From assembly GCA_904063045.1 (NCBI GenBank), contig CAJFCJ010000031.1, positions 219,105 to 283,104 on the forward strand: DNA of 64,000 nucleotides, written 5' to 3'. The notes beneath the pieces are model-generated. The model did not search any database. It worked only from the letters and a program-made list of their open reading frames with translations, and was not told the DNA's origin. Source of the stretch: Dimorphilus gyrociliatus (lineage: Eukaryota > Animalia > Annelida). Position numbers and translations under genes: made by a program. Shown piece by piece: positions 4,229 through 59,400 of this stretch; positions within the stretch are counted from its first letter, which is position 1, and each line of letters starts with the position of its first letter.

Positions 4229-16400
<12,172 letters not shown>

Positions 16401-20433: not shown

Positions 20434-21561
20434 TTAAATATACGATGGTGCAAAAGCAATGTCAACTGGCCATGATCCAACAGCTTTTATACTGGAATAA
20501 AGGCCGATATGATAAGCAAGATTTGGTTGGACGAGTAGGCCAAGTAAGTTAAAGGAATTTAGGAAATTTGCAAGAGCAACATCTAGAGGGAAATGAATGG
20601 AGCATTTGACGTTGCTGAATTGTTTGCCAATTAAATCAACGACTGGCTTTCGGTAAAGTACAGCTACAGTTCCGTAGTCGGGAGCTGGAACACGGGTATA
20701 AAGCGATATTGAAATACGTCGCCATTGACTAAGGAATTGACGAGATAGAACCAATGCCATAATAATCGTTATAATAGACGTTAATAGAATACGACGTCTT
20801 CCTATCAAATAGATCGAAATTGAACACATTGCTAATAGCTCAACTAACGATTTAATATTCATTCCGAATCCATTCCACTCACTCTTCGCAAACAACTTTG
20901 CATAATCGAATTGCCAATTCGATTCAAGTATTCTTTGACTAACTTCAATTAACTGATCGTGCGGTAAACCGTCGTCTTCCAGCATTAGAATAGGAGAATC
21001 AGTTTGCAACTTTTTCGATATTTCTTTCATACAATAGACATAGTCGTCCTTTTCTCGCTCAAAATTTTCCAGAATGCTATGATGAGCGTTGTTCAAATGA
21101 AAGCGTTTAATAAAGGGTAGATATTCTTGCAAATACGTTGCTTCTGTATGATCTCCCGGACCTGGGTGAACGTTACAAACATTTAAGTAGACTCCTTTTA
21201 TTTTTTTGGCAAGCTTGTCCGCCTTAGCAGCAACTTGGGTTAAGTATCCGGCCTTCCTCGATCCAACCATTCTTTTTGTCGTTATTATATTTATAACAAG
21301 GGTGATCTCACTTGCATCTGTTATCTTTTTATAATAATTAATACTGATGTTCCTATCTACATTTTTCCAATAGTTTAAGGCTTGATTGAGGCGTAGATCG
21401 TTCCGTCCTTCAGCCAACGTGATTAAAGAACGTCGATCCCAAAAAAGACTTGTCAAAGGTGAATTGGGAATTTCTTTGCACACGTATACAAACAGAAGTA
21501 TTAAAGACAATACAAAGACTTTCTTTTTTGATGAAATTTGTTTTAGCTTTCCAAACTTCAT
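20434..21561 (-). CDS. Intronless type-II membrane protein of 375 aa, tentatively PGAP4/TMEM246-like. It has an N-terminal TM anchor plus a tandem TM hairpin in the middle of a glycosyltransferase-like domain.
   Basis: Single ORF. The N-terminal anchor is KKKVFVLSLILLFVYV. An internal hydrophobic pair LVELLAMCSISIYLIGRRRILLTSIITIIMALVLS splits a globular region carrying GPGDHTEATYLQEY, a DD motif (LMLEDDGLP), and WPVDIAFAPSY at the C-terminus. The topology (about 375-400 aa, three TMs with two inserted in a GT-A fold) matches what is described for PGAP4. The assignment rests on architecture, not a remembered alignment. Confidence 0.4.
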   Translation of the reverse strand: MKFGKLKQISSKKKVFVLSLILLFVYVCKEIPNSPLTSLFWDRRSLITLAEGRNDLRLNQALNYWKNVDRNISINYYKKITDASEITLVINIITTKRMVGSRKAGYLTQVAAKADKLAKKIKGVYLNVCNVHPGPGDHTEATYLQEYLPFIKRFHLNNAHHSILENFEREKDDYVYCMKEISKKLQTDSPILMLEDDGLPHDQLIEVSQRILESNWQFDYAKLFAKSEWNGFGMNIKSLVELLAMCSISIYLIGRRRILLTSIITIIMALVLSRQFLSQWRRISISLYTRVPAPDYGTVAVLYRKPVVDLIGKQFSNVKCSIHFPLDVALANFLNSFNLLGLLVQPNLAYHIGLYSSIKAVGSWPVDIAFAPSYI

Positions 21562-26435: not shown

Positions 26436-27956
26436 ATGTCTAATGAACAAGAAATCCCCGACCGAATGTATGGTTTGGTGAAAACAAAAGATGAAATAGG
26501 TTATGATTTTGATGAAAATATGATTGTCCCACATCCCATTGAAGATGAAGTGTTAATTAAGGTATCATACTTGCCTTCATAATATGTTAAATTAAATTTG
26601 TTTTCATTACGATCACGCAATTTGTTTGCTTCTCTAAAAATAAATATAAGTACAGGTAGAGTCTGTGTCCTTGTGCGGTAGTGATCTAGTTCTATGGAAT
26701 TGGACCGATGCTGCTAAGGTTATTGCATCAATTCCATTTACCCCAGGCCACGAATGTTGCGGAACAGTTGTCAAATGCGGACCCGAATCAAAGCTTCAGG
26801 TAGGAAGAATAATAAAACTTCTCCACCCTAATTAATAATTTTAACGAATCATCATTTCGCTCTTATACCTTTTGAGTAAATCTTCCACAGATCGGTGATC
26901 GAGTTGCGGTGGAGAATCATTTTTTTTGCGGTAAATGCCATCAGTGTAAGCATGATAGAGGAGATATTTGCAGTGATATGGGACAGTACGGCCATGGAAA
27001 AAAAACTCCGTACGGCGGCTGCTCGCAATATTCAATCGTATCCTCCAAGTATTGCTATAAATTAGGCAACATAATAAGTTGGTAGAGCATTGAAATATTT
27101 CAAACACATCAAATATTATCCACTAAAAATAGATGCTGATGAAGCTGCTTTATTAGAGCCTTTGGGTGTTGCTCACAATGCCGTTGAGAATTTAGGTGAC
27201 TTGAATAGGGAAGATGTCCTGATTATTGGTGCTGGTCCTATTGGGCTTATGGCAATTCCCTGCGTTAAAAGTTGCGGGGCAAACAGGTGTAAATACAATT
27301 TATATACAGGTATATATTGTATTTGTTTAATAATACATAAATATTTTTGTTAAAAAGAGTCATCATATGCGATATAAACGAGAAAAGACTACAGTTTGCC
27401 AAGGAGATGGGCGCCGATCACGTGATTAATACTAATCATCAAAATCTTTCAGAGGTAAGATGGATACTACGAAAAACATTTATACTTGACATGCAAAATA
27501 CTGATAAATGCCTAAGATCTGTCCTATTTATTCAGTCTATATCTCAACTGACAAACGGAGATGGAATTGGCCGATTGATAGAATGTAGCGGAGCAGTGCA
27601 AATAGCTTCTATTATGTTTCAGCTAGTGAGAAAGGGAGGCCACATTGTACTAGTAGGTCTCGTCAAGCAGCCGTTAATTATCGAAAATTATATGCGTGAT
27701 TTAGGTTCGTATATTGTATCATATCACTAAAAACTAATAGTTATTATATCTTTAATTAGTTTTTAAGTCAATTCAAATTCGTGGCATTCACGGAAGAAGA
27801 ATATTTCATACTTGGCGCGAAACTGAGAAACTAGTGGAATCGAAACGCGTTGACATATCGAAGCTAATTTCTCATAAATTCCAATTTAAAGATTATAAGA
27901 AAGCGTTCGAAATCCTACTAAGTGGAGAAGCTCATAAAATTATCCTTACCCCGTAA
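26436..27956 (+). CDS. TDH: Zinc-dependent L-threonine 3-dehydrogenase of the MDR superfamily (bacterial/archaeal Tdh type), 357 aa. Seven exons: 26436-26561, 26656-26799, 26891-27077, 27133-27286, 27358-27454, 27536-27704, 27760-27956 (stop TAA 27954-27956).
   Basis: The spliced protein contains catalytic-zinc motifs CGSDLVLW...GHECCGTVV and the structural-zinc tetrad C-G-K-C-H-Q-C-x7-C. E. coli Tdh has CGHCRNCRGGRTHLC. The Rossmann motif is VLIIGAGPIGLMA. The C-terminus VFKSIQIRGIHGRRIFHTWRETEKLVES matches E. coli [28 protein letters not shown], and KLGNIINADEAALLEPLG matches KIPDNISDDLAAIFDPFG. All six introns are 72-95 bp with GT-AG and consistent phases. Confidence 0.8.
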
Positions 27957-28057
27957 TATTCAAAGGGATCAGTATCTGATTTTCATGTATTGATAATGGA
28001 AAAACTATAGCAAGATAATAAAAGTGAATAAGTAAATAGTGAATTTTCTTGATCTTG

Positions 28058-29242
28058 TTAATTGGGGTCTTGTTCTTGTTTTAATATTGCATCGATAAAA
28101 GTGCTCTTTTCATCCATCAAGAAACCTCTATCCAAGTCCCCTTGTTGATTTTCTCTTTGTTTCCTCTGTCGCTGTTGCCTCATACGTTGGGCCCTCTCCG
28201 CTGAATAGCCGTGATTTATTTCGTTTAAATCTCTTTGCTGATAAAAAGTAAGACTCAATCTCTTCGGTAATAAGCTGTTAGGTTTTGTGAGAGCAGTTGT
28301 AGCATGAGTTTCATATTTAGAATATTCAATTAGAACAGATCCGTTTGTTAGCTCTAATCCTAAACCTCCTACCGAACCCCCTGGAGTTGTACTGTAATGG
28401 GACAGTATGTGCAACTGCTCTGGCTTACGTTTCAATGGCACTAACGTATAGATAACCGAACAACCTTCATCCATATTCCAAAAATCCTGATGAGTATGGG
28501 CAGAATAATCCATATTAATGTTTACAGTTGAATAAGGTCTTTCAGATCCAAAGCCAATTCGACAATTATTATTCAGTTTAACCATATTTGCGAAGCATTT
28601 GGGAACAAGATCTTTTTGAATCTCAGCGACATCTTTTGCACATTCATTAATAAGTTGGGCAACTTCTCTAGGTAAATTACCATATTTTTTCATATCCCTA
28701 TTTTGGGCTTGAGCAAACCCACAACCTTCTAGATATGGTGAATAAGAGCAGCCTACGGTATAGCTTCTACCTTTAAATTTTTCAAACACTCCTTGGCAAG
28801 AGCAGGTTCTTGAACGATTCCAAGTACAAGCTCTAGGCCTTTCAAGCTTACTATTGCACATATTGGCACATAACATACCAAAGAGTAATTTTTGGTCGTA
28901 ATAGGAAAACTCGTTTTCCCATTGAACAATTGCAATTATAAATAGGGAGTATTTACAAGTATGATATGGCCTTTTTCGATATAGTATAAGTAATTGTTCA
29001 TGATCACTCTCATTTTCGTTTTTAGAAAGAACTTCAAGAGCTTTGGGACAACCTTTTCCGTCAACTCCAACATACTTTTTATAGTAAACTGGAATTAGCC
29101 TTGCTTTTCTTTCCTCAAATATTTCACTTAGATCTTCTTCATTTTTTCCGTGGCCCAAATGAAAATATATATTACCTTCCAACAATTCAGTATTAATATT
29201 ACAATCGCAGGGAGGTATACTAGCGTTTCGGATGAAGGACAT
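28058..29242 (-). CDS. TET: Minimal TET/JBP-family 5-methylcytosine dioxygenase of 394 aa, intronless. It comprises the Cys-rich domain plus the double-stranded beta-helix with a very short low-complexity insert, and has no CXXC domain.
   Basis: Alignment to the human TET2 catalytic domain from memory. PTCDCVEQ...GPFYTHLGAG matches PPCDCNINTELLEGNIYFHLGHG. AGHTCEAAVIVILILVWEG matches RPYHTCKYSLFIIAIVQWEN. RRCALNEERTCACQG matches RACTWNRSRTCSCQG. SFGCSWSMYYNGCKFARS matches TVGCSYSPYLEGCGFAQA. The Fe-binding HxD AHAHRDLHNM matches AHTHQDFWNM, and EQLHVLPLY matches EQLHILSHY. The distal His and 2OG Arg [36 protein letters not shown] match GSVLIEYSKYETHATTALTKPNSLLPKRLSLTFYQQ. There is an in-frame stop 27 nt upstream of the ATG. 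Confidence 0.85.
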   Translation of the reverse strand: MSFIRNASIPPCDCNINTELLEGNIYFHLGHGKNEEDLSEIFEERKARLIPVYYKKYVGVDGKGCPKALEVLSKNENESDHEQLLILYRKRPYHTCKYSLFIIAIVQWENEFSYYDQKLLFGMLCANMCNSKLERPRACTWNRSRTCSCQGVFEKFKGRSYTVGCSYSPYLEGCGFAQAQNRDMKKYGNLPREVAQLINECAKDVAEIQKDLVPKCFANMVKLNNNCRIGFGSERPYSTVNINMDYSAHTHQDFWNMDEGCSVIYTLVPLKRKPEQLHILSHYSTTPGGSVGGLGLELTNGSVLIEYSKYETHATTALTKPNSLLPKRLSLTFYQQRDLNEINHGYSAERAQRMRQQRQRKQRENQQGDLDRGFLMDEKSTFIDAILKQEQDPN

Positions 29243-29618
29243 GGCTAATTTGCCGAGTGGAATAACAAGAAATTAAAAGAACTCATTTAATTAATACTAA
29301 TTTTGTTAAGCATAACTCAGGAAAAAACTTTTATACTACTATTTAAAGGTAAAAATTTCATATTGTAGATGGCGCTATAAGTAGGTTGAAAATATTTTAT
29401 CGTTAAAATAGTAATTTTAAATAAATTTTATCAGAAATAAAGTTTTAAAATCTAATGGAAAAAATATATTTTTTATATTTTTGGTATAAAAATTCAAAAT
29501 ACGAAAATAATATTTAAAGAAAAAAAAAGCAGTCAACTGACATCGCAATATCATATCCAATAAAGGCGATTGTTTTTTTCATTGGTGACAATCTTCCTGG
29601 TTTTTATATACATTGAAT
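29243..29618. promoter_or_regulatory. A 376-bp bidirectional promoter shared by head-to-head TET (minus, ATG 29242) and UBE2M (plus, ATG 29619).
   Basis: Divergent start codons sit 376 bp apart. The interval contains an inverted CCAAT box (CATTGGTGACAATC at ~29580) and an A/T-rich core. Confidence 0.5.
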
Positions 29619-30374
29619 ATGATTAAATTATTCTCATTACGAAATCAAGAGAAAGAAGGCAATGATAGTAAATCCGGGAGAGTTAATCAGAAGAAAGTAT
29701 CAGCAGCCGTTCTAAGAGTCCAGAAGGGTATGAAATTTCAAGTCATATTAAATACTTTTATCAAACTCTTTTAATGTATAAATTGTAGATTTAAACGATC
29801 TAAATCTTCCTAAAACGTGTAAAGTTGATTTTCCGGACCCAGACGATCTCCTAAACTTTAAATTGACATTAATACCCGACGAAGGCTTCTATCGTGGAGG
29901 AAAGTTTGTATTCTCTTTCAAAATTCCACCAGGATATCCTCATGAAGCACCCAAAGTAAAATGTGAAACCATGGTATACCATCCAAACATTGATTTGCAA
30001 GGCAATATATGCTTAAATATTCTCAGGTATTTCATGATATATAGTTATGACCTTCTACTCTTGTACTAAAACAATTAATCTAATTTATTCAGGGAGGATT
30101 GGAAGCCTGTTCTTAACCTTCACTCTGTTATTGTTGGGATACAGTTCTTATTTCTGGTATAGTATTACTCAAATAAAATATTGCACACATTTAGTCATTA
30201 TTAATACTTGATTATTCATCATTTAAATAGGAACCTAACCCTCATGACCCCTTAAACGAAAATGCTGCCGAAATGCTAAAAACAAACCAGCGGATGTTTG
30301 AACAGAACATCTTCAAGTCAATGAGAGGTGGTTATATCGGAAGTACATACTTCGAACGCTGTCTCCTTAAATAG
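29619..30374 (+). CDS. UBE2M: NEDD8-conjugating enzyme UBC12 (UBE2M), 184 aa. Four exons: 29619-29727, 29789-30026, 30093-30156, 30231-30374 (stop TAG 30372-30374).
   Basis: The spliced protein is [184 protein letters not shown]. It is near-collinear with human UBE2M (MIKLFSLKQQKK...[14 protein letters not shown]...[23 protein letters not shown]...[16 protein letters not shown]). The active-site Cys lies in [15 protein letters not shown]. Confidence 0.95.
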
Positions 30375-30726: not shown

Positions 30727-33276
30727 CTATTCTTCTGGGACATTTGAGTTTGTGGGAACGATGGCTCCGCCTCCGATTAATCCATTTGCAGTATTGAAAA
30801 GATTAATTGGACTATTTCCATCAGTGATTAAAGTTGATTTGATGCCAAGACCTTGCAATAACTTAGCTTGCATCTCTGGTCCAGCGACGGCGATTGCCCT
30901 GATGGTATCAGCTCCGATAGCATCAATCATTCTCTTGAATTTTTCTACTTCAATATCAGCCAATTCTTTTGCTCTAGATATTTCAAGTCCATTAGATTCT
31001 TTTGTATATTGAAGGGCTTGAGTCAATCTTTCTAATTCAGCATCAGCCTCGATCTTCAATGCTTTAGCCTTCAGTTCAGCTTGTTCCACATTGGCTTCTG
31101 AATCGATTCGGATAGCTTCAGCTCGGCTCTCAGCCTCTGCCTTTGCCTGTCCTCTGGCTTCTACAGCGGCAGACTGAGCTTGAAGCTCTAGCAGATTCTT
31201 CTTTGACTTTTCTACCTCAGCTTCGTCTTGGATTCTCTGTCTTTCTAATTTACCCTTAGCTTCTTGTTCTAATCTCTCTGCCTCTTGTCTGGCAGTAGCT
31301 TCTTGGGCTGCAACAGTGATTTCAATTGCCAATTGTACGGATTTTTGTAAAGCATCCCTCGTCCTTTGATCAACCGGTTCTACCGACTGAATATCGATAC
31401 TAGTAACAACGAGATTATTTTGTTTAAAGAGGAAGGATTCACCAATTTTGTTATTTTCTGTGTAACCGAAAACTGATCCACGGATGATGCGAGCAGAATT
31501 TTTGTGGAAATCATCAAATTGTACACTAGCAACAGCTCCTCTAATACGCGAGGCCATTGCTTTACAAGCATCACCAACGAAATCTGGTACGCTAAAAATC
31601 TTGGCGACATCTTGTTCATTGTCTTTCTGAACTTCAAAGTGCCAATTGTAACTAAGTTGAAGTTGAAGTCTGGCGTGATCAGCCGTTTCAACAACAATAA
31701 TATCTGTACAAAAGTCAGGTCCCAAGAGGAGACAGAGACTCTTTATAACATTTGGTTTCTTGGGTTTCCCTCCAGAAAGAGATAATTGTGTGAATTGTTC
31801 ATCAGGATCAAGCATGACCAATTCAGGTCCGAAAATAATTCTAGCTTTTTTCTGCTTATAATCGTATATTTGTACGGCGGCGTTGTGAGGAACTCGGAAA
31901 GTGACTACTCTAGTTTTATCTCTTGGTTTCCCCTCTACACCAGTGGATCTTCTATCAGATCGGTCTGCAATAGGATCTTTACCAGTGGTCAATAGACCCT
32001 CAACTACTGGGGGTAATTTCTTTTCCCAAAGTTCCTCATCTTGTGTAAGCATATAAGTACCGCTGGTGACAGCTCTAACTTTTCCGTTCTTAATATTTCT
32101 CACATAGATACCTTCATTCTCATCCAAAGGTATGGCAGTTCTCTTGGTTACTACCTCTACTTCAACTGGTGGCATATATTCGACAGGTCCTCTAATCATC
32201 CACTTATCACCTGGTTGCCTGGTAACATCGCCATCTTGAAATAATTCGTTGGATTTCAAAATCACACCTTCGTTTTCTCCTAAAACGTATACATTTTGAA
32301 CACCCTTTTCCAGCGATTCTCCAGGTAAAAGGAAGAAACTTTTTTCTCCTCTGACTAGCTTCTTTTTGCCTAATTGAGGCTTGTTATGTTCATCAACAGG
32401 ATCTAGTATCACACAGTATTGGCGGTTTGTTAAAGTTGTAATATCTACAAAACCCATAACTTTTTCGTATACGTGTGGTATATGAGTTTCAGTGTCAGAT
32501 AACTTGATAAGCCATTCTTCTCCGTTTTTTCTTGTGACATTAAAGTCGTCTTTAAACGTACGACTGGCCTGCATATGTAGAGCTCTCTTTTCGCTCAATA
32601 CGTAAGCGTTGACGACATCAACAACTTCCTCGTAAACGCCAGGAAGATAGGCGCCCGTATTCTTTACTAACCATTCTTCTCCCGTAACTCTATTAATGCC
32701 TTCGAAATCCTCACATTCCTTTCTAGCTCTAAGTTTCAAGGCTTGATTAGGCATAATAACAGTTGCTCTAATAGTTTCATCAACGACAACTTCTTTTCTT
32801 GGGATATAAGTTCCCGGTCCCTTGAAAAGCCATTCATCACCGGCAATTCTTTTCTTTCCTTCCCCATCAGTAAAATCCAAGACAGCTCTCAATCTAAGAG
32901 CAGAGTTTGCAACCACAATAGTAAGGGGCTTTACTGGCTGTAATAAAACTTCTCCAGGGTACAAGGGGAAAGGATCTTGAGTTAGACGAATTTCTTTATC
33001 GGCATGAGCCAACTTTACTTGACCATATCCGTCTAAGATTACTTCACCATCGCCATTTCTTTGAACAGGATTTTCAATAATACAATATTGTCTTGGAGGA
33101 ACTGTTATCATTCGTTCCGGTCCCAATACGACCCTTTCATTATCTTGTCTAATGTATGTTTTTGGACCAACCTCAATTCGAGATACATTGGTATTTTGAT
33201 CCAAAACATGCAAATAGAAATAGGGAGGAATACGGAAGAGAGAATTATCTTCCTGTACAGTTTTTCGGAGAGACAT
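30727..33276 (-). CDS. MVP: Major vault protein (MVP), 849 aa, a single uninterrupted ORF (intronless).
   Basis: The ORF-track ORF is collinear with human MVP from memory. [37 protein letters not shown] matches [36 protein letters not shown]. Vault repeats carry [23 protein letters not shown] and the shoulder [12 protein letters not shown]. The cap-helix region has [39 protein letters not shown]...[23 protein letters not shown]...[32 protein letters not shown]. Confidence 0.95.
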
Positions 33277-40300: not shown

Positions 40301-42155
40301 TTTTAACTACCTTTACGACTCTGTTGATTGGTCCAAATCAAACGAAAATTCGGTACTCAATAATTTTATACAAATAATTAAATTAGCGAAATTATTTGTT
40401 AAAACATTTGTTTATCAAAAAAATTTTAGAAATGTAAAGTTTGTCGCAAAGGTGGAGAAGTGATATTATGTGACAAATGTAATGCTGCCTTTCATCTGAC
40501 CTGCTTAAGACCGGCGTTATTTTCCATTCCAGCGGGAGAATGGTTTTGTACTTCCTGCAATGTAAGTAATTTAAGGAAAAAGAAAACAATAACGCATCTA
40601 CGTATCTTTTTATAGCCACAAAATAACGAAAAAAGATCTCGACGGCCCAGGTATGCAGAGGATGATGAGGAAAATGGACTAAATAATGACGATTATTTAT
40701 TTAGGTCTATGAGACCAAGAGTAAGTTCTAAAATAGAAAAAAAGAATCATATGATAGATTTAACTTTTAAACTTGTTTTTATTAGCGATCCACTGTAACT
40801 TGTTGTATATGCGGATCAAGTGAACGACCTGTAAATAAATGCATGAGCTGCAATGCCAGTCTACACTATTGGTGTAATGATCCACCTTTTGAGAGCGAAA
40901 TGTCTTTCCAGAAACAATATGGTTGTATGTTATGCAATGGTAGATCCAGACGCTCTCTTCGATCTAACAGAACTTTAAATGGAAAAGTTGAAATGACCGA
41001 AGAAGACAAGACCAAGTTTGAAAAGGAAGCCAGAGCTGATAGAGCTGCGAGGAGAGCTGCACTTAAAACAAACGTCTTACCTTCAAGTGATGATGATATG
41101 GGTGATGATGAAAAATTAGAGGACGGGGAACCTTATGTAAAAATTTCTCGAAGGCGAACGTCATCGGCTTCATCCGCTTCATCAACAGCTAGTTATCATC
41201 TTGTTGATCATTCCTATCCATCGGGAAGAAAAAAGAGAAATCGTTCTCGACAACCCCTATATGCCAACAATTACGAATCTTCTGATTCAAATAGTGAATA
41301 TCCGGAAGATCCTTTAAAAGTAAAAATGAGCCTAAGAAAGAAACAGCGGCCGCTATATATGGAAACAGATTATTCCTGTGATACGGAGGAAGATGCATTT
41401 TCTAGGGATTTAAACGATACAAATAATCAATATACCACAGAAATTATTGTTGATGAAAGTTCTTTAACTGATCAAGTACCAACTCATAATAATAGAAATA
41501 CTATCATGCTAGATGGGAAGACTCAGGTTACTATTATTTCGCCTAAAAAGGAACGAGCAAAGCCAAAACCAAGAGTAGCTGACGAACAAGCAAAATTAAA
41601 GGTATCATAACAAAAACTAAAAATCGTCTAATTTTAAGTTAAACGTTTCCATTATTTTAAAATATTAGGAAATGATTGGCTTATTAGCAAGAACTGGACG
41701 ACAAAAGTGTGCTTGGCCATTTATCGACCCTGTTCGAAAAGAAGACGTTCCTGATTATTATGACGTGATAACGAAGCCCGTTGATTTGTCAACGCTCCGT
41801 AAGAAGATTGAGACTCATCAGCTTAAATCTGTGAATGATGTAGCTGCTGACGTCGCCCAGATGTTTGATAATGCTGAATTTTACAATGCTGTAAGTAATT
41901 AGTTTACTATAGAAATTATAATATACATTATTATTGAACGAATAGGTTGGAGATATTGTGTATAATTGCGTTGAGCCTGTTGAAAAATTCTTCGCCAAGC
42001 ATTTCAAGGTTATGTTCCCAAACGATATCTACAGACGAGAAAGACGCTATAAGGAAACCGAAAAGGCAACAAATGGAGATACTGAAGAAGCTGTTGTCCC
42101 GCAGGAGACAAGTATACTCGTCAATGGTGATAATCAGACGTCGATTGAATCCTAA
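37373..42155 (+). CDS. BAZ/ACF1-type chromatin-remodelling subunit with DDT, WHIM1, WSD, PHD, a second Zn finger and a C-terminal bromodomain. Exons resolved: 37373-37552, 37633-37746, 37801-37972, 38065-38168, 38230-38379, 38457-38573, then unresolved small Lys-rich exons in 38574-39142, 39143-39318, 39379-39558, 39628-40021, 40248-40352, 40430-40561, 40616-40720, ~40786-41601, 41669-41890, 41946-42155 (stop).
   Basis: The DDT-like block is [49 protein letters not shown]1 is [20 protein letters not shown]. The WSD has [15 protein letters not shown]. The PHD is [44 protein letters not shown], and the second zinc finger is [26 protein letters not shown]. The bromodomain is [59 protein letters not shown]...[15 protein letters not shown]. 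The transition 40021 to 40248 was chosen for phase consistency, and one coordinate anchor near 40843 differs by 1 nt from the ORF track. Confidence 0.8.
39640..39830 (+). repeat. In-frame coding tandem repeats inside a BAZ-like exon. There is a degenerate (GAGAAG/GAGAAT)n followed by three perfect copies of a 12-bp unit AATGAAATTAAA.
   Basis: The sequence encodes [62 protein letters not shown]. The antisense ORF-track ORFs at 39601-40050 and 39620-39823 are low-complexity artefacts of this repeat. Confidence 0.85.
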
Positions 42156-43977: not shown

Positions 43978-46900
43978 TTAATCCGCCTCTTCTTCATCCT
44001 CTTCTTCTGATTCGGCTTCTTCCAACCAAGTAAGCCACTGATTGACTTGAAACAGTGCCTGCCCTTTCCCCGGATATTCATCATTAACTTCCTCTTTCCA
44101 TTGGAAGAAAGCGTCCTCTTCCACAATTTCCTCGTTGTATAGTTGCATGAAAAGCCGTAATATTAAGCCTAATGACCGAAGAAATAATAAGCAAACAAAT
44201 AGATATGATTTATGGTTCATAAATGAAAAGGTGAAAGTATAGACTGGTGAATAAATAGAGTGGCATACAAATTCTCACCTTTGGGAAATGATTTTTCATA
44301 AGCGAATAGCTGAGTTGCGTATAAAGTAAATTTTTGTAGCTCAACATCATCTCCTATAAATCTTGATAGAACAGGTTTGAAGCTCGATAAAAGTGCCTTT
44401 TCGTCATCGCAATGTGACTTTTTGGACACTGCCGATTCGCAATCTATACCGTTAACAGTACTTGTTCTAGTCGTTACGTATTCCATAATACATTTGACGA
44501 GTACAGAAACAAATTTTGGTCTTTCTTCCTTAGAGATGTCTGTATTTTCCTCAACCCAGTCAGACAATGAATTAGGATCGTAATTTTCTTCTGTTAATTT
44601 CTTCTTTAAAGACCTTTCAAAAATCAGAAAGGGTACCAGAAAATCTAATTCCCTCTCTTGTAAAATGTCCACTAAATTAATATCGTCTGCACCTGATATA
44701 TTAAATAACCTTTAAAAAAGAACAAAACAATTATTTACACCTTATTACTAACCATTTAAAAGAAATTTAAAATCAAAATTAGAGGAATCAACAAAATTCT
44801 TCAACCAGGACTTATTCTTTAAATGAACCAAACATTGGAAGAGATTAAGAATAAATTGTTGACGAATTTGAGACGATTGCGTCATATCCGTAACATTTTT
44901 TAAAGTTAATACAGCATTATCGAGTATTAACAAATTTGCGCATAATAACGGCAATTTATAAAATTCGTTATTATTTTCATTCTCTTCTAATTTAGCCAAA
45001 GTAACTTTTAAAGCATTTTGTAGAGGATCTGAGGTTAAAAAACTTGAATTCATCAAAAATACCACTACAGATATAAGCAATTCTTCTCTATCTTCCTGTA
45101 GTATTATCTTTACATTCTGTTTTGCAATTGTTGCCAAACATAAGTTGATAATTAGCTCATCTAGAAATTTCTTTAAGCATTTATTATCGTTAATAAGTTT
45201 TTCGATTTCAGCAAATTTATCATCATTCACAGCTGTGAATATTGAACGAATTGTTTCGGTAACTTGTTGTTTATTAGTGACTTTTTTAACTGTTTGACGT
45301 ATTGTTATAGTTCCTTGCTTATGGATCATGGGGGCAGTTGGTGTAGTTTCAGTCTTCTCCGAACTGGATGGCTCTTGAGCAGATTTTGGTAAAGCGGTAG
45401 GACCAGCAGGCTTAAGGACGTTAAAAACACGCCCAGATGGCCTTAATGAGACAGTATCCTTACCATTTTGAAGAGAACCGTTAGATTCTTCATCATCTCC
45501 GTTCGAGATACGCTGCTGGTATCTAGAACCCATATTTCGATTGTTTTTCAACTGATTATTATACATTCTATTGTTCATACGGTGATTATTTCTCGAATCA
45601 TCAAACATCTCTGAAAAATAGAACAAAATATTGATAGCATTGTACATCCCATTCAAATAACTTACGTTTTGATATAATTGACTCGTTAGAAATAATTCCC
45701 GCATCGGAATATAAACTGAAATTTGACAAGCTATTCGGGCCAGAATTATGAAAAAGATCATTAATTTTCTTGGCACGCTCCTGCTGAAGTCTTGCTTGAC
45801 ACGAAACCAAGTTTATGGGCGTGCTTGAATTATGTAAAGAATATGAGCTATTCGAAATAAAGAGGCCATCTCGAGCAGCTTCTTCCCGAACTTGAACTAT
45901 AGTCCTAGGTCCATTATCCCTATAGGACTCCCTTGGAATCCAATGATGAGAACGCAATTCAACTATATCCTGTAGTAAAAATCTAACTCTGGGTGGTAAT
46001 TCTTTGCTCTTCATAAACATTTCGATTCTATCGAAATACTGATTCATCCATTGCTAATTTTTAAGGGGGAAAAAAACATAAAATGACTCATTAAAATGAT
46101 TGATTATAGTAGTAACAAAAAAAAATCAAAAGCTTTTTACTTTTGCAGGTTTCGTATCGAGGCGACGGCCAACAGTTTTCATAATTTGACATAAACATTC
46201 TAAGTCTTCTACCATATCATTAACGTTACTACTCTTTTTCTTCTCCAACAATTGCTTGATGCATTTATGCAGTACGCCTTCGTGAACCATATCCAACTTA
46301 CCGAGTTCGCATATAAATTTGATATTTCCGAGCATTTTACGCTTCGCAATATGCAACTCCTCCATCTCCTCATCAGTGAGAATCGCTCCTCCTTTCTCCA
46401 ATCTTTCTGTATCCTTTCTTCTATTTTCAAATTCATCTTGGCACTTATTTAATAGTAAACGTTTGAACGTCTAAAAGTGGAGAGAATGAGAGAATTGATA
46501 AAATAGCACGCATAAAAGAGAGTTTCTATTGTAAAAACAAACATTTGAAGAAGAATTTGGCGGATCAAAATTTGGTGCCTCCTTTGATAATCTGTTACAC
46601 AATTGTGCATAAAGAGAGCTATATTTCGGTTCTTCCAATGCCTTTTCAAATATCTATGGGAGCACGTAGAAGAGAAAGAAATTTTAAATTAGTCTTTGCT
46701 TGAAACAAGGTCAAAGTAGATTTCTAAAGCGGGTACTAATAAAATACTATACATATATTATACAGTATATATTTATAAACATGTACTATATATAATCTAT
46801 ATAAGAGGGAAAGAAAGGTGAGATATGTATTTAAAAAAAAGACTTTTTTGTAAGATACGTACGAGTAAGATTATTCCAGCTAAGATGGTTTGGGAATCGA

Positions 46901-53422: not shown

Positions 53423-56400
53423 ATGAGTAGTGATAAACAAGAAGACGAATCATGGAAAAAATTACCGCCCGAAGAAAAAGTGAAGCAATCGGTTTGTCTT
53501 TTAAATAATTTTGCAGCCGTTAAAACTATTTTTCAAAATAATTTCTGAGTCATTTCTGAGTAAAATGTTAATTACATTATACTACATTACACTATGTGAT
53601 AAATAACAATATATTTCTACCGTTTTTCAATTGGTAAGCTTGATAAAGCTATAATATATTCTAATGGTGACAGAATTGGAGAGCTCGTGTGGAAGGGTAT
53701 CAAGAAGCTTCAAAACTATTCGAAAGAGAAGATGAAAAAAGTCCTGTATTTGATAAATATTTAGGTGTTGCCAAAAAATTTATCATCGACTCCAATGCTC
53801 CTGCTCAAGAAAAGGGTGTTGAAGCTATGCAAAATTTTGTCAGAAATGCTGCTGTTGCTCGCAAGTCTGTTTATTTTTATTACCATGTAATAATAATAAA
53901 TCGAATATAAAACATTCGTTTTTTATTTATTGTAGAACGGCTGGTGAATGTGTAAATGCTGTTGTGACAAAATGCTTTAATGCACGCCAAAAAACAAAAG
54001 AAATGGGTATCGAATTGTTAATGTTATACATAGAAATTGAAAAGCAAGAAACTGTTATAGAAGAACTACTTAAAGGATGCTCAAACAAACAAGATAAGAT
54101 AGTCAGAGCCAGTATATATACTATTAAGGAAGCAATGCGACAGTTTGGCCCCAAAATTATTAGCCCTAAACCTATTGTAAAACTTTTACCTAGCCTTTTG
54201 GAAGCTAAAGATTCTGTAGCTCGTGAAGAAGCTAAAGATTTAGCTGTTGTTATATATCATTGGTTAGGAGACCCTGCTCTTAAGTCGACGTTAGCAGCAG
54301 TGAAACCTCTCCTGCAAAACGAATTACAAAGTCTTTTTGAAGAAGTTAAAACTACCAAACCACAAAAATTAAGGTTTTTAAAATCTGAACAAGACAAAAT
54401 TGAAAGAGCTCCCCAAGGTGAGGGATCTCAGGATGCCACAGCAGAAGTTCAAGTTGAAGAAGAAATCGATCCGTTAGCCTTTATTAATCCTGTCGACATT
54501 TCAAAAGACATACCAAAAGATTGGTCGGATCAAATTGTAAGTGATGTTTATTTCGGTGTAATTTTAGTAAAGATAAACTAGTGACCAATTGATCAAAACC
54601 TAAAAGGTCTCGAAAAAGTGGAGTGATCGTAAAGAAGTAATTGAGAAAATTTCAAGCCTTGTTGAAGTAAATCCGAAATTAGAATACAACGATATTTATA
54701 AAGATATTGTACCAGCTTTGAAAAAAGTAAAAGAATACTTCTATTTGTTTTAGAAATTCTTTTATTGATTTATTTTCTCTTTCTTTTTATAGGTTTTAAG
54801 CAAAGATGTTAATGTCATGTGCGTTACGGCAGCAGCTAAATGCCTAGGGCTAATTGCCAATGGATTGGGGAAAAAATTTGGTATTTTTGTTCAAATGGTA
54901 ATCTAATATATTTTAAATAAGAGTTTTATTTAAATAAAATGAATGTATTATTTAAAGCTGTTAGATGCAATCCTTGATAAATTTAAAGAAAAGAAATCTG
55001 CTGTTGTAACTGAGCTACGTACGGCCATTGACGCTGTCGCTAAAAGTGTATGTGTTAATTTTTATATTTTTTATTTGTTGACTATTTTAACATTTTTTTT
55101 TAATTATAAATATTTCAGACTACTCTTGATTCAATGAGCGAGACTTGTCTAAGTCATCTACGTCATAAAAATCCCGATATTCGTATGCAAACTTCAGCTT
55201 TTCTCGCAAGGTTTATTATATTTTATCTATTTTTTTTTTATTGTCTACAGTTTCTTTACATACTCTTTTAATAAAATTATTCTGTTTTTAAATAATAGGT
55301 TTTTTCTCCGAACGAGTAAGTCCTCTTTGCCAAAAAAACTTTTAAAAAGCTACGTTGAAGCTTTATCTGCTGTAAGTAATTAGAGTTGTTATATATTTTA
55401 AATATTAATAGTTGTTCTATGTTAAACATAGAATCTTAATGATACCGTTGAAATAAGAGAAGCGACTTACGAAGCGTTAGGAAATTGTATGAAAATTGTA
55501 GGTGAAAAGGCGGTTGAAATATTTATTGGTGACAATGTAGAAGAAATTAAAAAGGAAAAGGTAGATATATTTAATTTTATTTTTAAATACGTAATTCCGT
55601 TGATTTTTCGTTTGTGTTTTTTTTATTCTAATCATTAAAGATTAGAGAATACAGTAACAAGACTATCGTCGCTAAAACGGATGGTGGAGCAAAAAATGGA
55701 GCAAAAGAGGGTTCGTCTGGATCGGCCCCCCCTGCACCTACCCAATCAATTGCAGGTCCAAAGAAAGTTCCAATGAAGGGAACTAGAACTGCAGTAAAAT
55801 CATCTGGTAACCTTGGTAAAAAAACTGATGCAAAACGTACTGCTAAAAAAGTATCATCCGAACAGGTATATACATACTGTATATATACATGTATATATAT
55901 ATAATATAACATATAAAATTTGTTTTATATTTTTTCTCTATATTTTAAATTAATTACAATTTAAATTATTACTTGCAGGAAAATTCAGAACAGGCAAATA
56001 GCTTTTTTTTATATATATATTTTGTCGCTTAATTTTTACCAATTTAAAAAAAATAACCAGCTTGTGTCCTTCTAACTGAATGTGATCCTCCTGTGTATTT
56101 AGTTCTGTTTTAAACAATTCTTTAAAAAATACTACAATAACATAGATATTTTCTATGTAAATTTGTAATTTTATTTTTTAACAAACAAAATAGAAAATTT
56201 TAACATAGTTTGTTTTGTAAAAATTTTCATTTTGTTTTTTTTTTAATTTATTTTACTTTGTTAAATATTTGATTTGGAAATAAAATTTTTACATTCAATT
56301 CTCAAAACAGAAAGAAACATCGAGTGGTTTTGAAGAGAGAGTACTATCTGTAAGTTTAATTGATTTTTACTGTATTTAATATAATAGAGTTAATTTGAAA

Positions 56401-59400
56401 AGGTTTTTTTTTATATTATAGGATGCAGATGTTGAATCGTTGGTTGCAGCTTTCCTTCCGGGTGATACCGTTTCAAATTTTGCCGCTCAGAAATATTCTG
56501 ATCGTCAAGGTGTTGTAGAAGATCTTATAGAAGTACGTAATGGAACAGTTAATAATGTATAATTTATAATTTTTTACATTTTCGTTGCATTATTATAGAA
56601 AATAGGCAAAAGCTGTCGTGAAGATATACCTTGTCAAGCTATTATAAACGTTTTGGCACGTAAGCCAGGAATGCAGGATTGCAATCATTTGGTAATGATA
56701 TTGTTTTATTTAGCAGTGGAAATGTTTCTAATTTAGAAAATTTTTTTCGAAATTATTAGGTTATGAAATCTAAATTAAAACTAATTGAAGAGCTGGCCGT
56801 AAATGCTAATTTCTCAAAACTCTCCTGCGATTTGGTGCTAGATGGAGTAATTGATCAGTTAAGTCATCCAAAAAATAATCAACTTTCAAAAGAAGTTTTG
56901 TACGCCATGGCAGACACATTGGGTTTCAATAATATTTCAACACAAGTAAGTTTATTCATGGTTTTCATTTTGTTCAATGTGGCTTTTTCCAAGTGTTTTT
57001 TTTTTAATTGACCAAATTTCTCTCTTTTAGATTGCTGAACAATGTTTAAAAGCCAAAAACCCAACAAAGAAAGCAGAAGGCTTAAATTGCTTAAACAATG
57101 GATTGGAATTATATGGTATTAAAAGTGTACAAATTCAAACTGTTATCGATTTTGTTAAAAATTCATTTCAACACAGTAATGTAGTATGTATACTTATTAT
57201 ATTTTGTCTATCTACCAGCTTTAAGAATGAAATTGATAATCGTCTGTATTTTGTGACTTTCAGAATGTAAGGCAAGCCGCTTACGAACTGACCGCTACCC
57301 TTTTATTGTATACCGACGATGTCGCAAATTGTTATTTTCAAGCTGAACAGGATAGAGTCAAAACTGAAATAAAAAACATTCGAGAAAAACAAAAAGATCG
57401 AAAAAAATTACCTCCTAGTCGAGGTAAATTATCAGCTGCTGCTAAAGGTACTACATCTGGAAACGATAAAAATGGTGCTGCAAATCAAGAGGATGAGGAG
57501 GATGAAGATCCTATTGAAATGAATGTTCCCAGAGTTGATATAAGCGCCAACTTTACCGATGAATTTATGCAAAAATTATCACATCAAGCTTGGAAGGAAA
57601 AAAATGCTGCACTTGATACACTCATAACCATTCTGAAAGCGAATGCATTTATAAAACCAACTATTGGTGACCTATGCAATATTCTCAATCAGAGATTAAA
57701 GGAATCTAACAAAAACCTGGTGGCAAAAGTAATGGACATTATTCTCATGTTAATAACTGCTCTCGGCCCTGGTGTTAAAGACTATGGAAGAATGTGGGCA
57801 TTAAATATCTTATTAAATTTTGGTGATAAAAAAGCTCAGTTAAGGTCAACTGCCTTAAAGGCTATAGATGGTATTACGAACTATACAAAAATTAATATGA
57901 TTTTCGAAAATGAAATTATTTTTGATGCTTTGAAACCTGAAAATCCTATGTTGAAGACAGAAATATTAAAATGGTTAACTGTAAAGTTAACTGATTGCAA
58001 GAGGCCGCCTGTTGCTGAATTAAAATTAATTATTCCAATTGTCTACTCCTGTTTAGAAGATAGAAATGTAGATGTTCGACAAGCTGCAAATGGAATTTTA
58101 GCACCACTAATCAGAATTGTTGGATTTGACTCATTAAAAAGAGCTGCTTCTAAAGTGTCCAAAGCCTCGCAACAAAATATTTTAACAATTATACAAAAGG
58201 CTAAGGATAATCTACCAGCCATTTCAAAACCAGCTTCAGCTCCAGTTCAAACTACCAAAGTTGAGGAGAAACAAGAATCTTCCAAGCCTTCCAATGCTTC
58301 CGATTCCTCAAAAACAACGAAACCTAAAGAACCGACAGAGGAAATATCAGAAAAATCTTCCAAATCTAAGTTAGCTAAATCTAAAGTTCCAGCTCCAAAA
58401 GCTAAACCTGCAGCGAAGGAAACTACAACGGAACCTGTCACTCACCTGAAAGAAAATGCTGAAAAATCTGTCAGAATAAAGATGGAAAAAGACCGAAAGG
58501 TAAAAACCATTAATTATAAATAAAACATTCGATAATTACTAAAAATAAATTTTCTTTTCTTCATAGACGCTTAGATGGGACTTTTCAGGAAATAAGACCG
58601 AATATATAAGACAACTAAAAACTCAAATGGAGGGATCATTCAGCAGAGAATTTATTGATATACTCTTCCACGCAACAGATTTTAAAGTTTACGTAAAAGG
58701 AATTGAAATGTTATATAAGGTAGGAAACATGTTCTATTCTTAAACTGGGTGAGAACATTCGATTAAAATTGGAAAAAAACAAATACTTATTTTAGTGCTT
58801 AACGGAAGAACCGTTATCTCTGACTTTATCGAATCTTGACTTGATTTTACGCTATTTTACTATACGCTTCCAAGAAAATAATACAACCGTCTTGATAAAG
58901 ATTTTTGACTATTGTGATGTAAGTACTAGATTGAAATTGGTGTTTTATACATTAAACTATATTACCTTTGTGTTTTAGAAACTCTTTGCCGAACTGCTTA
59001 ATTCCAACTACGTTCTACTTGAATACGAAGCTTACAGCTTTCTACCTTTCCTTATTCTCAAAGTAATTAACACTTTTGTTATTAATCTATATTTAAATAT
59101 GAATTTTTTTAGATTGGAGATACTAAAGAAAATATTAAACGAGCTGCAAAGTCTTTAGTACAACAATCGGCTAAAATGTATTCGCCTTTTAATATATGCA
59201 AATTCGTTGTTGATGGTTTAACTTCGAAAAATTTAAAATTTAGAGCTGGTAACGTTTTCCCTTTATTAATTGTATTAAAAACAATTCGTAATTGATCTTT
59301 TAATTTAATTTTACAAAATAAGAATGCATCGATCAAATTGGTATGCTGATACAAGAGAATGGAATGCAAGTGTGCTATCCGAATGAAAAAACTCTAATGA

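What the first reader, a model, noticed from the sequence alone, without database searches (positions are those of the whole stretch)
28058..29242. Intronless, minimal (394 aa) TET 5-methylcytosine dioxygenase with all catalytic residues intact
The ORF aligns block-by-block with the Cys-rich and DSBH core of human TET2. The Fe(II) HxD triad (HTHQD), the distal His (ETHATT) and the 2-oxoglutarate Arg (KRLSLTFYQQ) are all present. The large low-complexity insert of animal TETs is reduced to about 30 residues of Q/R-rich sequence, there is no CXXC domain, and there are no introns, although every neighbouring housekeeping gene is spliced. A TET of this size resembles the minimal protist enzymes (NgTet1-like) more than typical metazoan TETs. 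In an AT-rich genome it raises the question of which substrate (5mC in DNA, RNA, or another base) it acts on and which methyltransferase it partners.
Basis: partly seen in the sequence, partly recalled or inferred. Interest (0 to 1): 0.75.

Follow-up and report, generated by a model that had tools for sequence, protein, structure and literature searches.

The report
Stripped-down TET enzyme, remodelled substrate pocket
This is a real but already catalogued TET (methylcytosine-oxidase family) gene of the miniature annelid Dimorphilus gyrociliatus, an animal reported to have almost no DNA methylation. It keeps every metal- and cofactor-binding residue but has replaced most residues that normally grip methylated DNA, so its real substrate is an open question.

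Summary
The ORF at 28058-29242 (minus strand, 394 aa) is real and is a metazoan-type TET dioxygenase. It matches Pfam Tet_JBP at E=3.6e-20 and human TET2 at E=5e-53, and its predicted fold has TM 0.76 to TET2. It is 100% identical to an annotated Dimorphilus gyrociliatus protein named 'Methylcytosine dioxygenase TET'. Guynes et al. 2024 already reported two TET paralogs in this species, with an HxD motif, no CXXC, no DNMT3 and negligible 5mC. The gene identity is therefore not new.

- The Q/R-rich stretch is the C-terminal helix, not a remnant of the insert. The insert itself is about 9 residues.
- The nearby major vault protein gene is also a single 849-aa ORF.
- The protein is TET2-like, with a complete Cys-rich domain, not NgTet1-like.

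What seems unreported is the pattern of conservation. All 21 Fe/2OG/Cys-His core positions are kept. Only 3 of 13 literature-defined substrate/DNA-contact positions match TET2, against 8-13 in 97 other TET representatives. H1904->Q and K1299->G occur in no other hit listed, and T1372->N is the only Asn at that position. H1904Q in human TET2 is reported to raise thymine oxidation five-fold.

Best reading: an active oxygenase core with altered substrate recognition, in a genome without 5mC. The substrate is untested.

The parts
28058..29242 (-). Single-exon CDS (394 aa + stop) of a metazoan-type TET dioxygenase. It is identical to the D. gyrociliatus protein named 'Methylcytosine dioxygenase TET'.
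28676..29224 (-). Cys-rich domain (aa ~7-189, equivalent to TET2 ~1129-1312). All near-invariant Cys/His columns are kept: C12, C14, C65, H94, C96, C139, C147, C149, C165, C174.
28202..28675 (-). Double-stranded beta-helix (DSBH) oxygenase domain, aa ~190-347. The Pfam Tet_JBP match spans aa 167-336.
28484..28492 (-). Fe(II) HxD motif, H251-Q252-D253 (TET2 H1382/D1384).
28304..28306 (-). Distal Fe(II) His, H313 (TET2 H1881).
28259..28261 (-). 2-oxoglutarate Arg, R328 (TET2 R1896). S330 (= S1898), H278 (= H1416) and R137 (= R1261) are also kept.
28235..28237 (-). Q336 (codon CAA) at the position of the base-recognition His, TET2 H1904. All 132 other representatives with a residue at this position have His.
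   Evidence: PMC11804724
28718..28720 (-). G175 at the position of the DNA-contact Lys, TET2 K1299 (Lys in 148/148 others). Q178 (= R1302) and A179 (= S1303) follow.
   Evidence: PMC6625141
28520..28522 (-). N241 at the position of the active-site scaffold Thr, TET2 T1372 (Thr in 141 of 150 sequences including the query; the query is the only Asn).
   Evidence: PMC6244454
28370..28396 (-). Site of the low-complexity insert of canonical TETs, here only about 9 residues (aa 283-291, TTPGGSVGG).
28127..28201 (-). C-terminal Q/R-rich helix (aa 348-372). It aligns to the C-terminal helix of the TET2 catalytic domain and is not an insert remnant.
29243..29618 (.). 376-bp AT-rich spacer between the TET start codon and the divergently transcribed NEDD8/ubiquitin-E2 (UBE2M-like) start codon at 29619. 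It is the presumed shared promoter region and leaves no room for upstream TET exons.
27957..28057 (.). 101-bp spacer between the TET stop codon and the stop codon of the convergent zinc-dehydrogenase (TDH-like) gene. It contains no AATAAA.

Best explanation
The ORF is a genuine, expressed-type gene for a metazoan TET-family Fe(II)/2-oxoglutarate dioxygenase of Dimorphilus gyrociliatus. It is presumably one of the two TET paralogs reported for that species. It is reduced to the Cys-rich + DSBH catalytic core, with no N-terminal region, no CXXC, an insert of about 9 residues and no introns.

Shown:
- Family membership.
- A TET2-like predicted fold.
- Retention of every Fe(II), 2OG and conserved Cys/His position.
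- Replacement of most residues that contact the flipped 5mC base and the DNA backbone in human TET2.

Inferred:
- The protein still carries out 2OG-dependent oxidation, because the chemistry-bearing residues are kept.
- Its substrate recognition has shifted away from CpG 5mC in duplex DNA, which is essentially absent in this animal. The candidate substrates are m5C in RNA or thymine in DNA (giving 5hmU). I do not rank one above the other. A weak residual 5mC activity is not excluded.
- The intronless, N-terminally short architecture fits origin as a 5'-truncated retrocopy, or wholesale intron loss in this intron-losing compact genome. This step is speculative.
For: Identity:
- Pfam Tet_JBP, 72 bits against a cut-off of 34.9.
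- Human TET2 at E=5e-53 over both halves of the core.
- 802 homologs at E<=1e-3. Every listed hit that I looked up and that carried an organism name is an animal TET.
- AF2 model with pTM 0.77; its best PDB matches are all human TET2 (E~1e-32, TM 0.74-0.77).
- 100% identity to the D. gyrociliatus protein.

Maintained function:
- 394 open codons at P~5e-14 by chance, despite extreme divergence. The query differs from the consensus at 38 of 109 near-invariant columns, the most of all 150 hits.
- 21 of 21 Fe/2OG/Cys-His positions are identical to TET2.

Remodelled recognition:
- Only 3 of 13 literature-defined substrate/DNA-contact positions are identical to TET2, against 8-13 in 97 other representatives (Fisher p=2e-6, post hoc).
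- H1904->Q and K1299->G are unique among the hits, and N at T1372 and W at H1386 are each seen only in the query. R1262->A, R1302->Q, S1303->A, W1291->Y and M1293->P also differ.

Literature:
- H1904 and N1387 hydrogen-bond the 5mC base. The H1904Q variant gained five-fold thymine oxidation. For most variants in that H1904/N1387 panel, 5mC oxidation fell 10-40-fold; no separate figure was given for H1904Q (PMC11804724).
- K1299E/S1303N strongly reduces activity, and T1372 is a scaffold for stepwise oxidation (PMC6244454).
- W1291, K1299, R1302, S1303, H1904 and K1905 are classed as DNA-recognition positions (PMC6625141).

Organism:
- 0.16% mCG, no DNMT3, CpG o/e 0.9 (PMC11292947). The window's CpG o/e is 1.03.
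Against: - No biochemical or nucleoside-level data exist for this protein.
- The contact set was assembled after seeing the substitutions. It is judged by identity to human TET2, and three of the ten differences are conservative (T1393S, A1876S, K1905R).
- The protein is fast-evolving overall, so some contact changes may be drift.
- N1387 and Y1902, two of the three base-recognition residues, are retained, and DNMT1 is still encoded. Embryonic 5mC as a substrate is therefore not excluded.
- The AF2 model rests on a 9-sequence alignment. Its DNA-contact loops have pLDDT below 50 and cannot be interpreted.
- I could not retrieve the second paralog, so I cannot say whether this copy is the derived one.
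- No retrocopy hallmarks (poly-A tract, target-site duplications) are visible.
Confidence: 0.6

Rival explanations
1. It is a canonical 5mC-DNA dioxygenase. It erases low-level or stage-restricted 5mC laid down by the retained DNMT1/UHRF1, for example in early embryos or the germline. Its divergent residues are neutral or compensated.
For: - The Fe/2OG triad, N1387 and Y1902 equivalents are intact.
- DNMT1 and UHRF1 are reported present, and the authors do not exclude 5mC at earlier life stages (PMC11292947).
Against: - CpG o/e is about 0.9-1.0, which argues against germline methylation.
- H1904->Q and K1299->G are found in no other of the ~130-150 TET representatives aligned.
- Matching human mutations (H1904Q, K1299E/N, S1303N) are classed as impairing DNA recognition or activity.
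Confidence: 0.2
2. It is a relic or non-catalytic protein. After loss of 5mC the gene is drifting under relaxed selection, or it survives for a catalysis-independent scaffolding role.
For: - It is the most divergent of the 150 best hits, deviating at 35% of near-invariant columns.
- The substrate-contact surface is largely lost.
- The organism lacks 5mC.
Against: - A drifting gene would not keep a 394-codon ORF in AT-rich DNA (P~5e-14).
- It would not keep 21 of 21 metal/cofactor/Cys-His positions while 35% of other conserved columns changed.
- A purely structural role would not need the HxD...H and Arg residues.
Confidence: 0.15
3. It is a protist-type (NgTet1-like) or horizontally acquired minimal TET/JBP enzyme rather than a derivative of the animal TET lineage.
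For: Small size (394 aa), no introns and no insert.
Against: - The full metazoan Cys-rich domain is present, which NgTet1 lacks (from my own knowledge of the NgTet1 structure).
- The best sequence hits looked up are animal TETs at 34-40% identity.
- The fold matches TET2 at TM 0.76 but NgTet1 at only 0.38-0.45.
- The gene sits between ordinary animal housekeeping genes.
Confidence: 0.03

Closest known systems
Human TET2 catalytic domain (PDB 4NM6/5D9Y; Cys-rich + DSBH)
   Same: - Same two-domain core, aligned end to end at E=5e-53.
- Predicted fold TM 0.74-0.77.
- Identical Fe(II) ligands, 2OG ligands and all conserved Cys/His positions.
- No CXXC domain.
   Different: - No long N-terminal region.
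- The spacing between the H1416 and H1881 equivalents is 34 residues instead of 464.
- Ten of 13 substrate/DNA-contact positions differ, including H1904->Q, K1299->G, R1302->Q, S1303->A, T1372->N and R1262->A.
D. gyrociliatus TETa/TETb as described by Guynes et al. 2024 (Genome Biol 25:204)
   Same: Same species and gene family. This protein is identical to the deposited D. gyrociliatus TET. The paper reports the HxD motif, the absence of CXXC, the absence of DNMT3 and negligible 5mC.
   Different: The passages I read (keyword searches of the main text and the supplementary figure legends) do not mention the single-exon structure, the missing insert or the altered base/DNA-contact residues. 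I could not tell whether this locus is TETa or TETb.
Drosophila Tet (a TET kept in a genome with little or no 5mC)
   Same: An animal TET retained after loss of the DNMT1/DNMT3-type 5mC system. RNA m5C and DNA 6mA have been proposed as its substrates (general knowledge; 6mA is mentioned in PMC11804724).
   Different: Drosophila Tet is reported to keep substrate-interacting residues 'absolutely conserved with mammalian TETs' (PMC11804724). It is also large (a related fly TET is about 2950 aa). The annelid protein has changed those residues and is 394 aa.
Leukaemia-derived human TET2 H1904Q / N1387T neomorphic mutants
   Same: The annelid protein naturally carries Gln at the H1904 position. H1904Q in human TET2 showed a five-fold gain in thymine-to-5hmU oxidation (PMC11804724).
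   Different: Those are single somatic substitutions in an otherwise canonical enzyme. Here the change is germline-fixed, is accompanied by many other pocket and DNA-contact changes, and N1387 is retained.
Naegleria NgTet1 (minimal protist TET)
   Same: Small, insert-less, active-core-only architecture, with the HxD...H/Arg DSBH.
   Different: NgTet1 has no Cys-rich domain (my own knowledge). The fold match is weak (E~1e-6, TM(query) 0.38-0.45) compared with TET2 (E~1e-32, TM 0.76).
Insert-less short TET ORFs from metagenome and genome assemblies (P0104, P0110, P0118, P0120, P0133, P0146)
   Same: - Cys-rich + DSBH core with 32-40 residues between the H1416 and H1881 equivalents.
- Uninterrupted ORFs.
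- They group with the query at the base of a neighbour-joining tree.
   Different: - Only 27-34% identical to the query.
- All keep His at the H1904 position and Lys at the K1299 position.
- Their source organisms are unknown.
- The grouping may be long-branch attraction.

Membership tests
TET/JBP 2OG-Fe(II) dioxygenase superfamily (Pfam PF12851) | Match to the Tet_JBP oxygenase-domain profile above the curated cut-off. | tested here: met
   72.3 bits against a cut-off of 34.9, E=3.6e-20, aa 167-336 covering profile positions 2-163 of 164.
TET/JBP 2OG-Fe(II) dioxygenase superfamily (Pfam PF12851) | HxD...H Fe(II) facial triad and the 2OG-binding Arg. | tested here: met
   H251/D253/H313 and R328 align without gaps to TET2 H1382/D1384/H1881/R1896. 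S330, H278 and R137 (= S1898, H1416, R1261) are also kept.
Metazoan TET subfamily (TET1/2/3-type) | Cys-rich domain immediately N-terminal to the DSBH, with conserved Cys/His positions. | tested here: met
   C12, C14, C65, H94, C96, C139, C147, C149, C165, C174, C227, H249 and H344 all match columns that are at least 97% Cys/His in the other hits. The alignment to TET2 starts at its residue ~1129.
Metazoan TET subfamily (TET1/2/3-type) | Overall fold of the TET2 catalytic domain. | tested here: met
   AF2 model (pLDDT 72, pTM 0.77) against PDB. The top five hits are all human TET2, at E 1.5e-32 to 2.2e-31 and TM 0.74-0.77.
Metazoan TET subfamily (TET1/2/3-type) | Large low-complexity insert splitting the DSBH. 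| tested here: not met
   34 residues between the H1416 and H1881 equivalents, against a median of 346. Only 11 of 128 representatives have 40 or fewer.
Metazoan TET subfamily (TET1/2/3-type) | 5mC base-recognition triad (Asn1387, Tyr1902, His1904 in TET2). | tested here: not met
   N256 and Y334 are present, but the His is Gln (Q336). His occurs in all 132 other sequences that have a residue at this position. The residue roles come from PMC11804724.
Metazoan TET subfamily (TET1/2/3-type) | DNA-backbone/duplex contact residues (R1262, W1291, K1299, R1302, S1303, K1905). | tested here: not met
   The query has A138, Y167, G175, Q178, A179 and R337. The residue roles come from PMC6625141 and PMC6244454.
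Metazoan TET subfamily (TET1/2/3-type) | N-terminal CXXC zinc finger (present in TET1/TET3 and many invertebrate TETs; absent from TET2 and reported absent from annelid TETs). | tested here: not met
   No CXXC Pfam hit. No C..C..C-x4-6-C..C..C motif in any frame of the window. This is not a strict requirement, because annelid TETs are reported to lack it.
Metazoan TET subfamily (TET1/2/3-type) | Oxidation of 5mC to 5hmC/5fC/5caC in DNA. | not testable with these tools
   This needs recombinant enzyme assays and LC-MS/MS.
NgTet1-like minimal protist TET | DSBH-only enzyme without a Cys-rich domain, closest in sequence and fold to NgTet1. | tested here: not met
   A Cys-rich domain is present. 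NgTet1 structures match at only E~1e-6 and TM(query) 0.38-0.45, against 0.76 for TET2.
JBP1/2 thymine hydroxylases | JBP-type oxygenase domain with a J-DNA-binding or SWI2/SNF2 domain; substrate is thymine. | tested here: not met
   Tet_JBP is the only Pfam hit, and no J-binding or helicase domain was found. The closest sequences are animal TETs. Thymine activity is not testable here.

The most novel reading that the evidence does not exclude
This is a naturally re-targeted animal TET. In an annelid that has lost genomic 5mC, a catalytic-core-only TET paralog with a germline-fixed H1904Q-type pocket, and without the duplex-DNA contacts, has switched substrate. It would oxidise thymine in DNA (making 5hmU, JBP-like) or m5C in RNA. 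If so, it would be the first natural metazoan example of the substrate shift so far seen only in human leukaemia mutants.
Probability: 0.2. Interest if true: 0.8.

Novelty: new variant of a known kind. Interest (0 to 1): 0.45.

Why it matters
As a TET gene it is not new. It is annotated, and the species' TET pair has been published. What could matter is the combination of three things:
- An animal with essentially no 5mC.
- A TET cut down to about the smallest complete Cys-rich + DSBH core seen among the full-core hits.
- A fully conserved catalytic centre next to a substrate-recognition surface unlike any of about 100 other TET representatives, including the exact H1904Q change that shifts human TET2 towards thymine.

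This makes the long-standing question 'what do TETs do in animals without DNA methylation?' directly testable with a small, single-exon protein. It would also offer a compact natural scaffold for enzyme engineering.

Tried and rejected
1. Finding the second D. gyrociliatus TET paralog. This would have shown whether this copy is the derived one.
   - Three word-indexed protein searches returned only the query itself, plus one metagenomic protein.
   - Three name look-ups on 30 of the 150 exhaustive-search hits found no Dimorphilus protein.
   - The paper's supplements hold no gene identifiers.
   - tblastn found no second TET in the window.
2. The exact-product contig look-up for the query found no record. 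I therefore had no independent gene-model table.
3. I first guessed from memory that TET2 R1261 lay in 'KFARS' and was lost. Proper numbering showed R1261 = R137 and is conserved. The changed residues in that motif are K1299, R1302 and S1303. An off-by-two error from trimmed alignments was corrected.
4. Neighbour-joining tree. The query groups with other long-branch, insert-less TETs. Internal branches are 0.03-0.12 against terminal branches of ~0.7, so I do not treat an 'insert-less clade' as established.
5. Transposon association. I looked at the THAP-TET contig L002 and found no transposase ORF. The window gene is packed between housekeeping genes with 376-bp and 101-bp spacers. I dropped the idea.
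6. Retrocopy hallmarks. There is no poly-A tract and no AATAAA within 300 bp downstream, so this is uninformative.
7. The T1372N phenotype (stalling at 5hmC) is from my memory of Liu et al. 2017. The papers I could read document only T1372E/A, so I do not rely on it.
Full report
**1. The observation**

The ORF listing finds a 394-aa ATG-initiated ORF at exactly 28058-29242 on the minus strand. An in-frame stop lies 11 codons upstream of the ATG. With the ORF's own base composition, the chance of 394 stop-free codons is about 5e-14. The quoted motifs HTHQD, ETHATT and KRLSLTFYQQ are all present.

**2. Family assignment**

- Pfam gives one hit, Tet_JBP (PF12851), at 72.3 bits against a cut-off of 34.9 and E=3.6e-20. 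NCBIfam, a prokaryote-oriented library, gives nothing.
- phmmer against PDB sequences finds the human TET2 crystal constructs at E=5e-53. There are two collinear blocks: aa 7-291 (Cys-rich domain plus the first half of the DSBH) and aa 290-362 (second half of the DSBH plus the C-terminal helix).
- The exhaustive HMMER search over 1.84 billion representatives finds 802 homologs at E<=1e-3. Apart from itself, the best are 34-40% identical, and nearly all are 1000-3000-aa proteins matched in two stretches.
- Of the 30 hits I looked up, those with organism names were animals: fish, marsupial, spiders, mite, ostracod, brine shrimp, barnacle, flies, planthopper, cnidarians, a flatworm and a limpet.
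- An AlphaFold2 model from a shallow 9-sequence alignment has mean pLDDT 72.4 and pTM 0.77. Its top five PDB matches are all human TET2 (E 1.5e-32 to 2.2e-31, TM 0.74-0.77). CMD1, CcTet, FTO and NgTet1 follow at E~1e-8 to 1e-6, with NgTet1 TM(query) at 0.38-0.45.

The protein is therefore a metazoan TET2-type enzyme. It is not NgTet1-like except in size.

**3. Organism and prior knowledge**

The protein is 100% identical over its full length to an NCBI/UniRef entry of Dimorphilus gyrociliatus named 'Methylcytosine dioxygenase TET', on a 407.5-kb contig.

Guynes et al. 2024 (PMC11292947) report the following for this miniature annelid:
- The TET gene is duplicated (one copy is called TETa). All annelid TETs studied have a conserved HxD motif, and annelid TETs lack CXXC.
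- DNMT3 is absent. DNMT1 lacks its DMAP and CXXC domains.
- Adult mCG is 0.16%, below the non-conversion rate, and genomic CpG o/e is 0.9.

The window itself has CpG o/e of 1.03. The genome paper reports intron loss as part of genome compaction (PMC7854359).

The existence and family of this gene are thus already known. I could not determine whether this locus is TETa or TETb, and I could not retrieve the other paralog.

**4.

(a) The insert.
- I numbered positions through the TET2 construct (P0025 = 4NM6 chain). The query has 34 residues between the equivalents of H1416 and H1881. Native TET2 has 464, and the median of 128 representatives is 346.
- The distribution is bimodal. Eleven representatives have 32-40 residues, and every other natural protein has at least 127.
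- The insert site is aa 283-291 (TTPGGSVGG).
- The Q/R-rich stretch (aa ~349-368) lies after H344 (= H1912). It aligns to the C-terminal helix of the TET2 catalytic domain and is predicted helical. It is not an insert remnant.

(b) Neighbours.
- The upstream neighbour is a UBE2M-like E2 on the plus strand, starting at 29619 and spliced. This leaves a 376-bp divergent spacer.
- The downstream neighbour is a spliced zinc-dehydrogenase (TDH-like) gene on the plus strand, with its stop at 27954-27956. That is 101 bp from the TET stop.
- The next gene, major vault protein (30727-33276, minus strand), is a single 849-aa ORF with the full Vault/shoulder domain set. Intronless genes are therefore not unique to TET here.

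(c) No CXXC-type motif exists in any frame of the 64-kb window.

**5. Residue-level analysis**

All 150 best hits were aligned to a core profile and numbered by TET2.

Kept in the query:
- Fe(II) ligands H1382, D1384 and H1881.
- 2OG contacts R1896, S1898, H1416, R1261 and S1284.
- All near-invariant Cys/His columns: C1133, C1135, C1193, H1219, C1221, C1263, C1271, C1273, C1289, C1298, C1358, H1380 and H1912.
- In total, 21 of 21 positions are identical to TET2.

Changed in the query:

| TET2 position | Query residue | Others (excluding the query, except where noted) |
|---|---|---|
| H1904 | Q336 | His in 132/132 |
| K1299 | G175 | Lys in 148/148 |
| T1372 | N241 | Thr in 141 of 150 incl. query; the query is the only Asn |
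| H1386 | W255 | the only Trp |
| R1302 | Q178 | Arg in 131/148 |
| S1303 | A179 | Ser in 140/148 |
| R1262 | A138 | Arg in 120 of 147 incl. query |
| W1291 | Y167 | Trp in 139/148 |
| M1293 | P169 | Met in 133 of 149 incl. query |

- On a 13-position set of substrate/DNA-contact residues taken from three papers, the query is identical to TET2 at 3 positions.
- The 97 other fully covered representatives score 8-13, and 83 of them score 12 or 13.
- Core versus contact retention gives Fisher p=2e-6. The set was assembled after seeing the data, and three of the differences are conservative.
- Overall the query deviates at 38 of 109 near-invariant columns, the most of any hit.

**6. What the literature says about these positions**

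- H1904 and N1387 hydrogen-bond N3 and N4 of 5mC, and Y1902 stacks on the base.
- Recombinant human TET2 H1904Q showed five-fold higher thymine oxidation than wild type. For most variants in that H1904/N1387 panel, 5mC oxidation fell 10-40-fold; no separate figure was given for H1904Q.
- Drosophila Tet is said to keep these residues absolutely conserved (all PMC11804724).
- R1261 contacts 2OG. K1299E/S1303N markedly lowers activity. The T1372-Y1902 scaffold is needed for stepwise oxidation (PMC6244454; PMC12830177).

**7. Interpretation**

Shown: this is a complete, maintained, TET2-type catalytic core with an intact metal/cofactor centre and a uniquely remodelled substrate surface, in a genome reported to lack 5mC.

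Inferred: the enzyme is probably still an oxygenase, because selection has spared exactly the chemistry-bearing residues while a third of other conserved columns changed. Its preferred substrate is probably no longer CpG 5mC in duplex DNA. Candidates:
- m5C in RNA. RNA m5C oxidation by TET2 is the subject of PMC11499264, seen by title only.
- Thymine in DNA, by analogy with H1904Q.

Rivals:
- A canonical eraser of transient embryonic 5mC.
- A drifting or non-catalytic relic.
- A protist-type TET, which the data essentially exclude.

Origin:
- The single exon and the absence of the N-terminal region would fit a 5'-truncated retrocopy.
- No hallmarks survive, and D. gyrociliatus loses introns generally.
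- Origin therefore stays open.

**8. Side observation**

A discrete set of insert-less, uninterrupted TET ORFs (319-529 aa) exists on short metagenome or assembly contigs of unknown eukaryotes. One carries an N-terminal THAP domain. In a neighbour-joining tree they sit with the query outside the 119 canonical TETs. The internal branches are very short compared with the terminal ones, so long-branch attraction is likely.

**9. Verdict**

The one interesting and apparently unreported feature is the conserved catalytic centre combined with a rewritten substrate-recognition surface in a 5mC-less animal. That gives a concrete, testable hypothesis, hence a moderate interest score.

Noticed in passing
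window 30727-33276 (-): The major vault protein gene is a single uninterrupted 849-aa ORF carrying all Vault repeat and shoulder domains. It is another intronless gene two genes away from the TET.
   Followed up: partly
L002 3478-5037 and L003 974-2533 (protein P0146): A 519-aa uninterrupted ORF from metagenome-derived contigs fuses an N-terminal THAP zinc finger to an insert-less TET core (Pfam THAP + Tet_JBP). The source organism is unknown, and no transposase ORF lies on the 5.5-kb contig.
   Followed up: partly
proteins P0104, P0110, P0118, P0120, P0133, P0112, P0114, P0137, P0141 (L001 426-1961 for P0133): These form a discrete class of short, insert-less Cys-rich + DSBH TET ORFs, with 32-40 residues between the H1416 and H1881 equivalents. 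They come from environmental assemblies and are all highly divergent. They may be an undescribed TET subgroup, or independent reductions.
   Followed up: partly
window 27957-28057 and 29243-29618: The gene packing is very tight. Only 101 bp separate the stop codons of the convergent TET and TDH-like genes. Only 376 bp separate the start codons of the divergent TET and UBE2M-like genes. This implies overlapping or very short UTRs and a shared promoter region.
   Followed up: partly
window 1-64000: CpG observed/expected is 1.03 (GpC 1.17) at about 32% GC. This is the signature of a germline without cytosine methylation and agrees with the published genome-wide value of 0.9.
   Followed up: yes
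window 5764-7059 (-), 20434-21561 (-), 44748-45776 (-), 40843-41610 (+), 7585-8274 (-): Five long ORFs (229-431 aa) have no Pfam match at E<=1e-4. They may be lineage-specific genes or long exons of uncharacterised proteins.
   Followed up: no
window 10940-13312 (-), 53964-54581 (+), 57306-58523 (+): Other recognisable genes in the window: a RasGAP-domain protein with a 790-aa exon, and TOG/CLASP-type microtubule-regulator exons.
   Followed up: no
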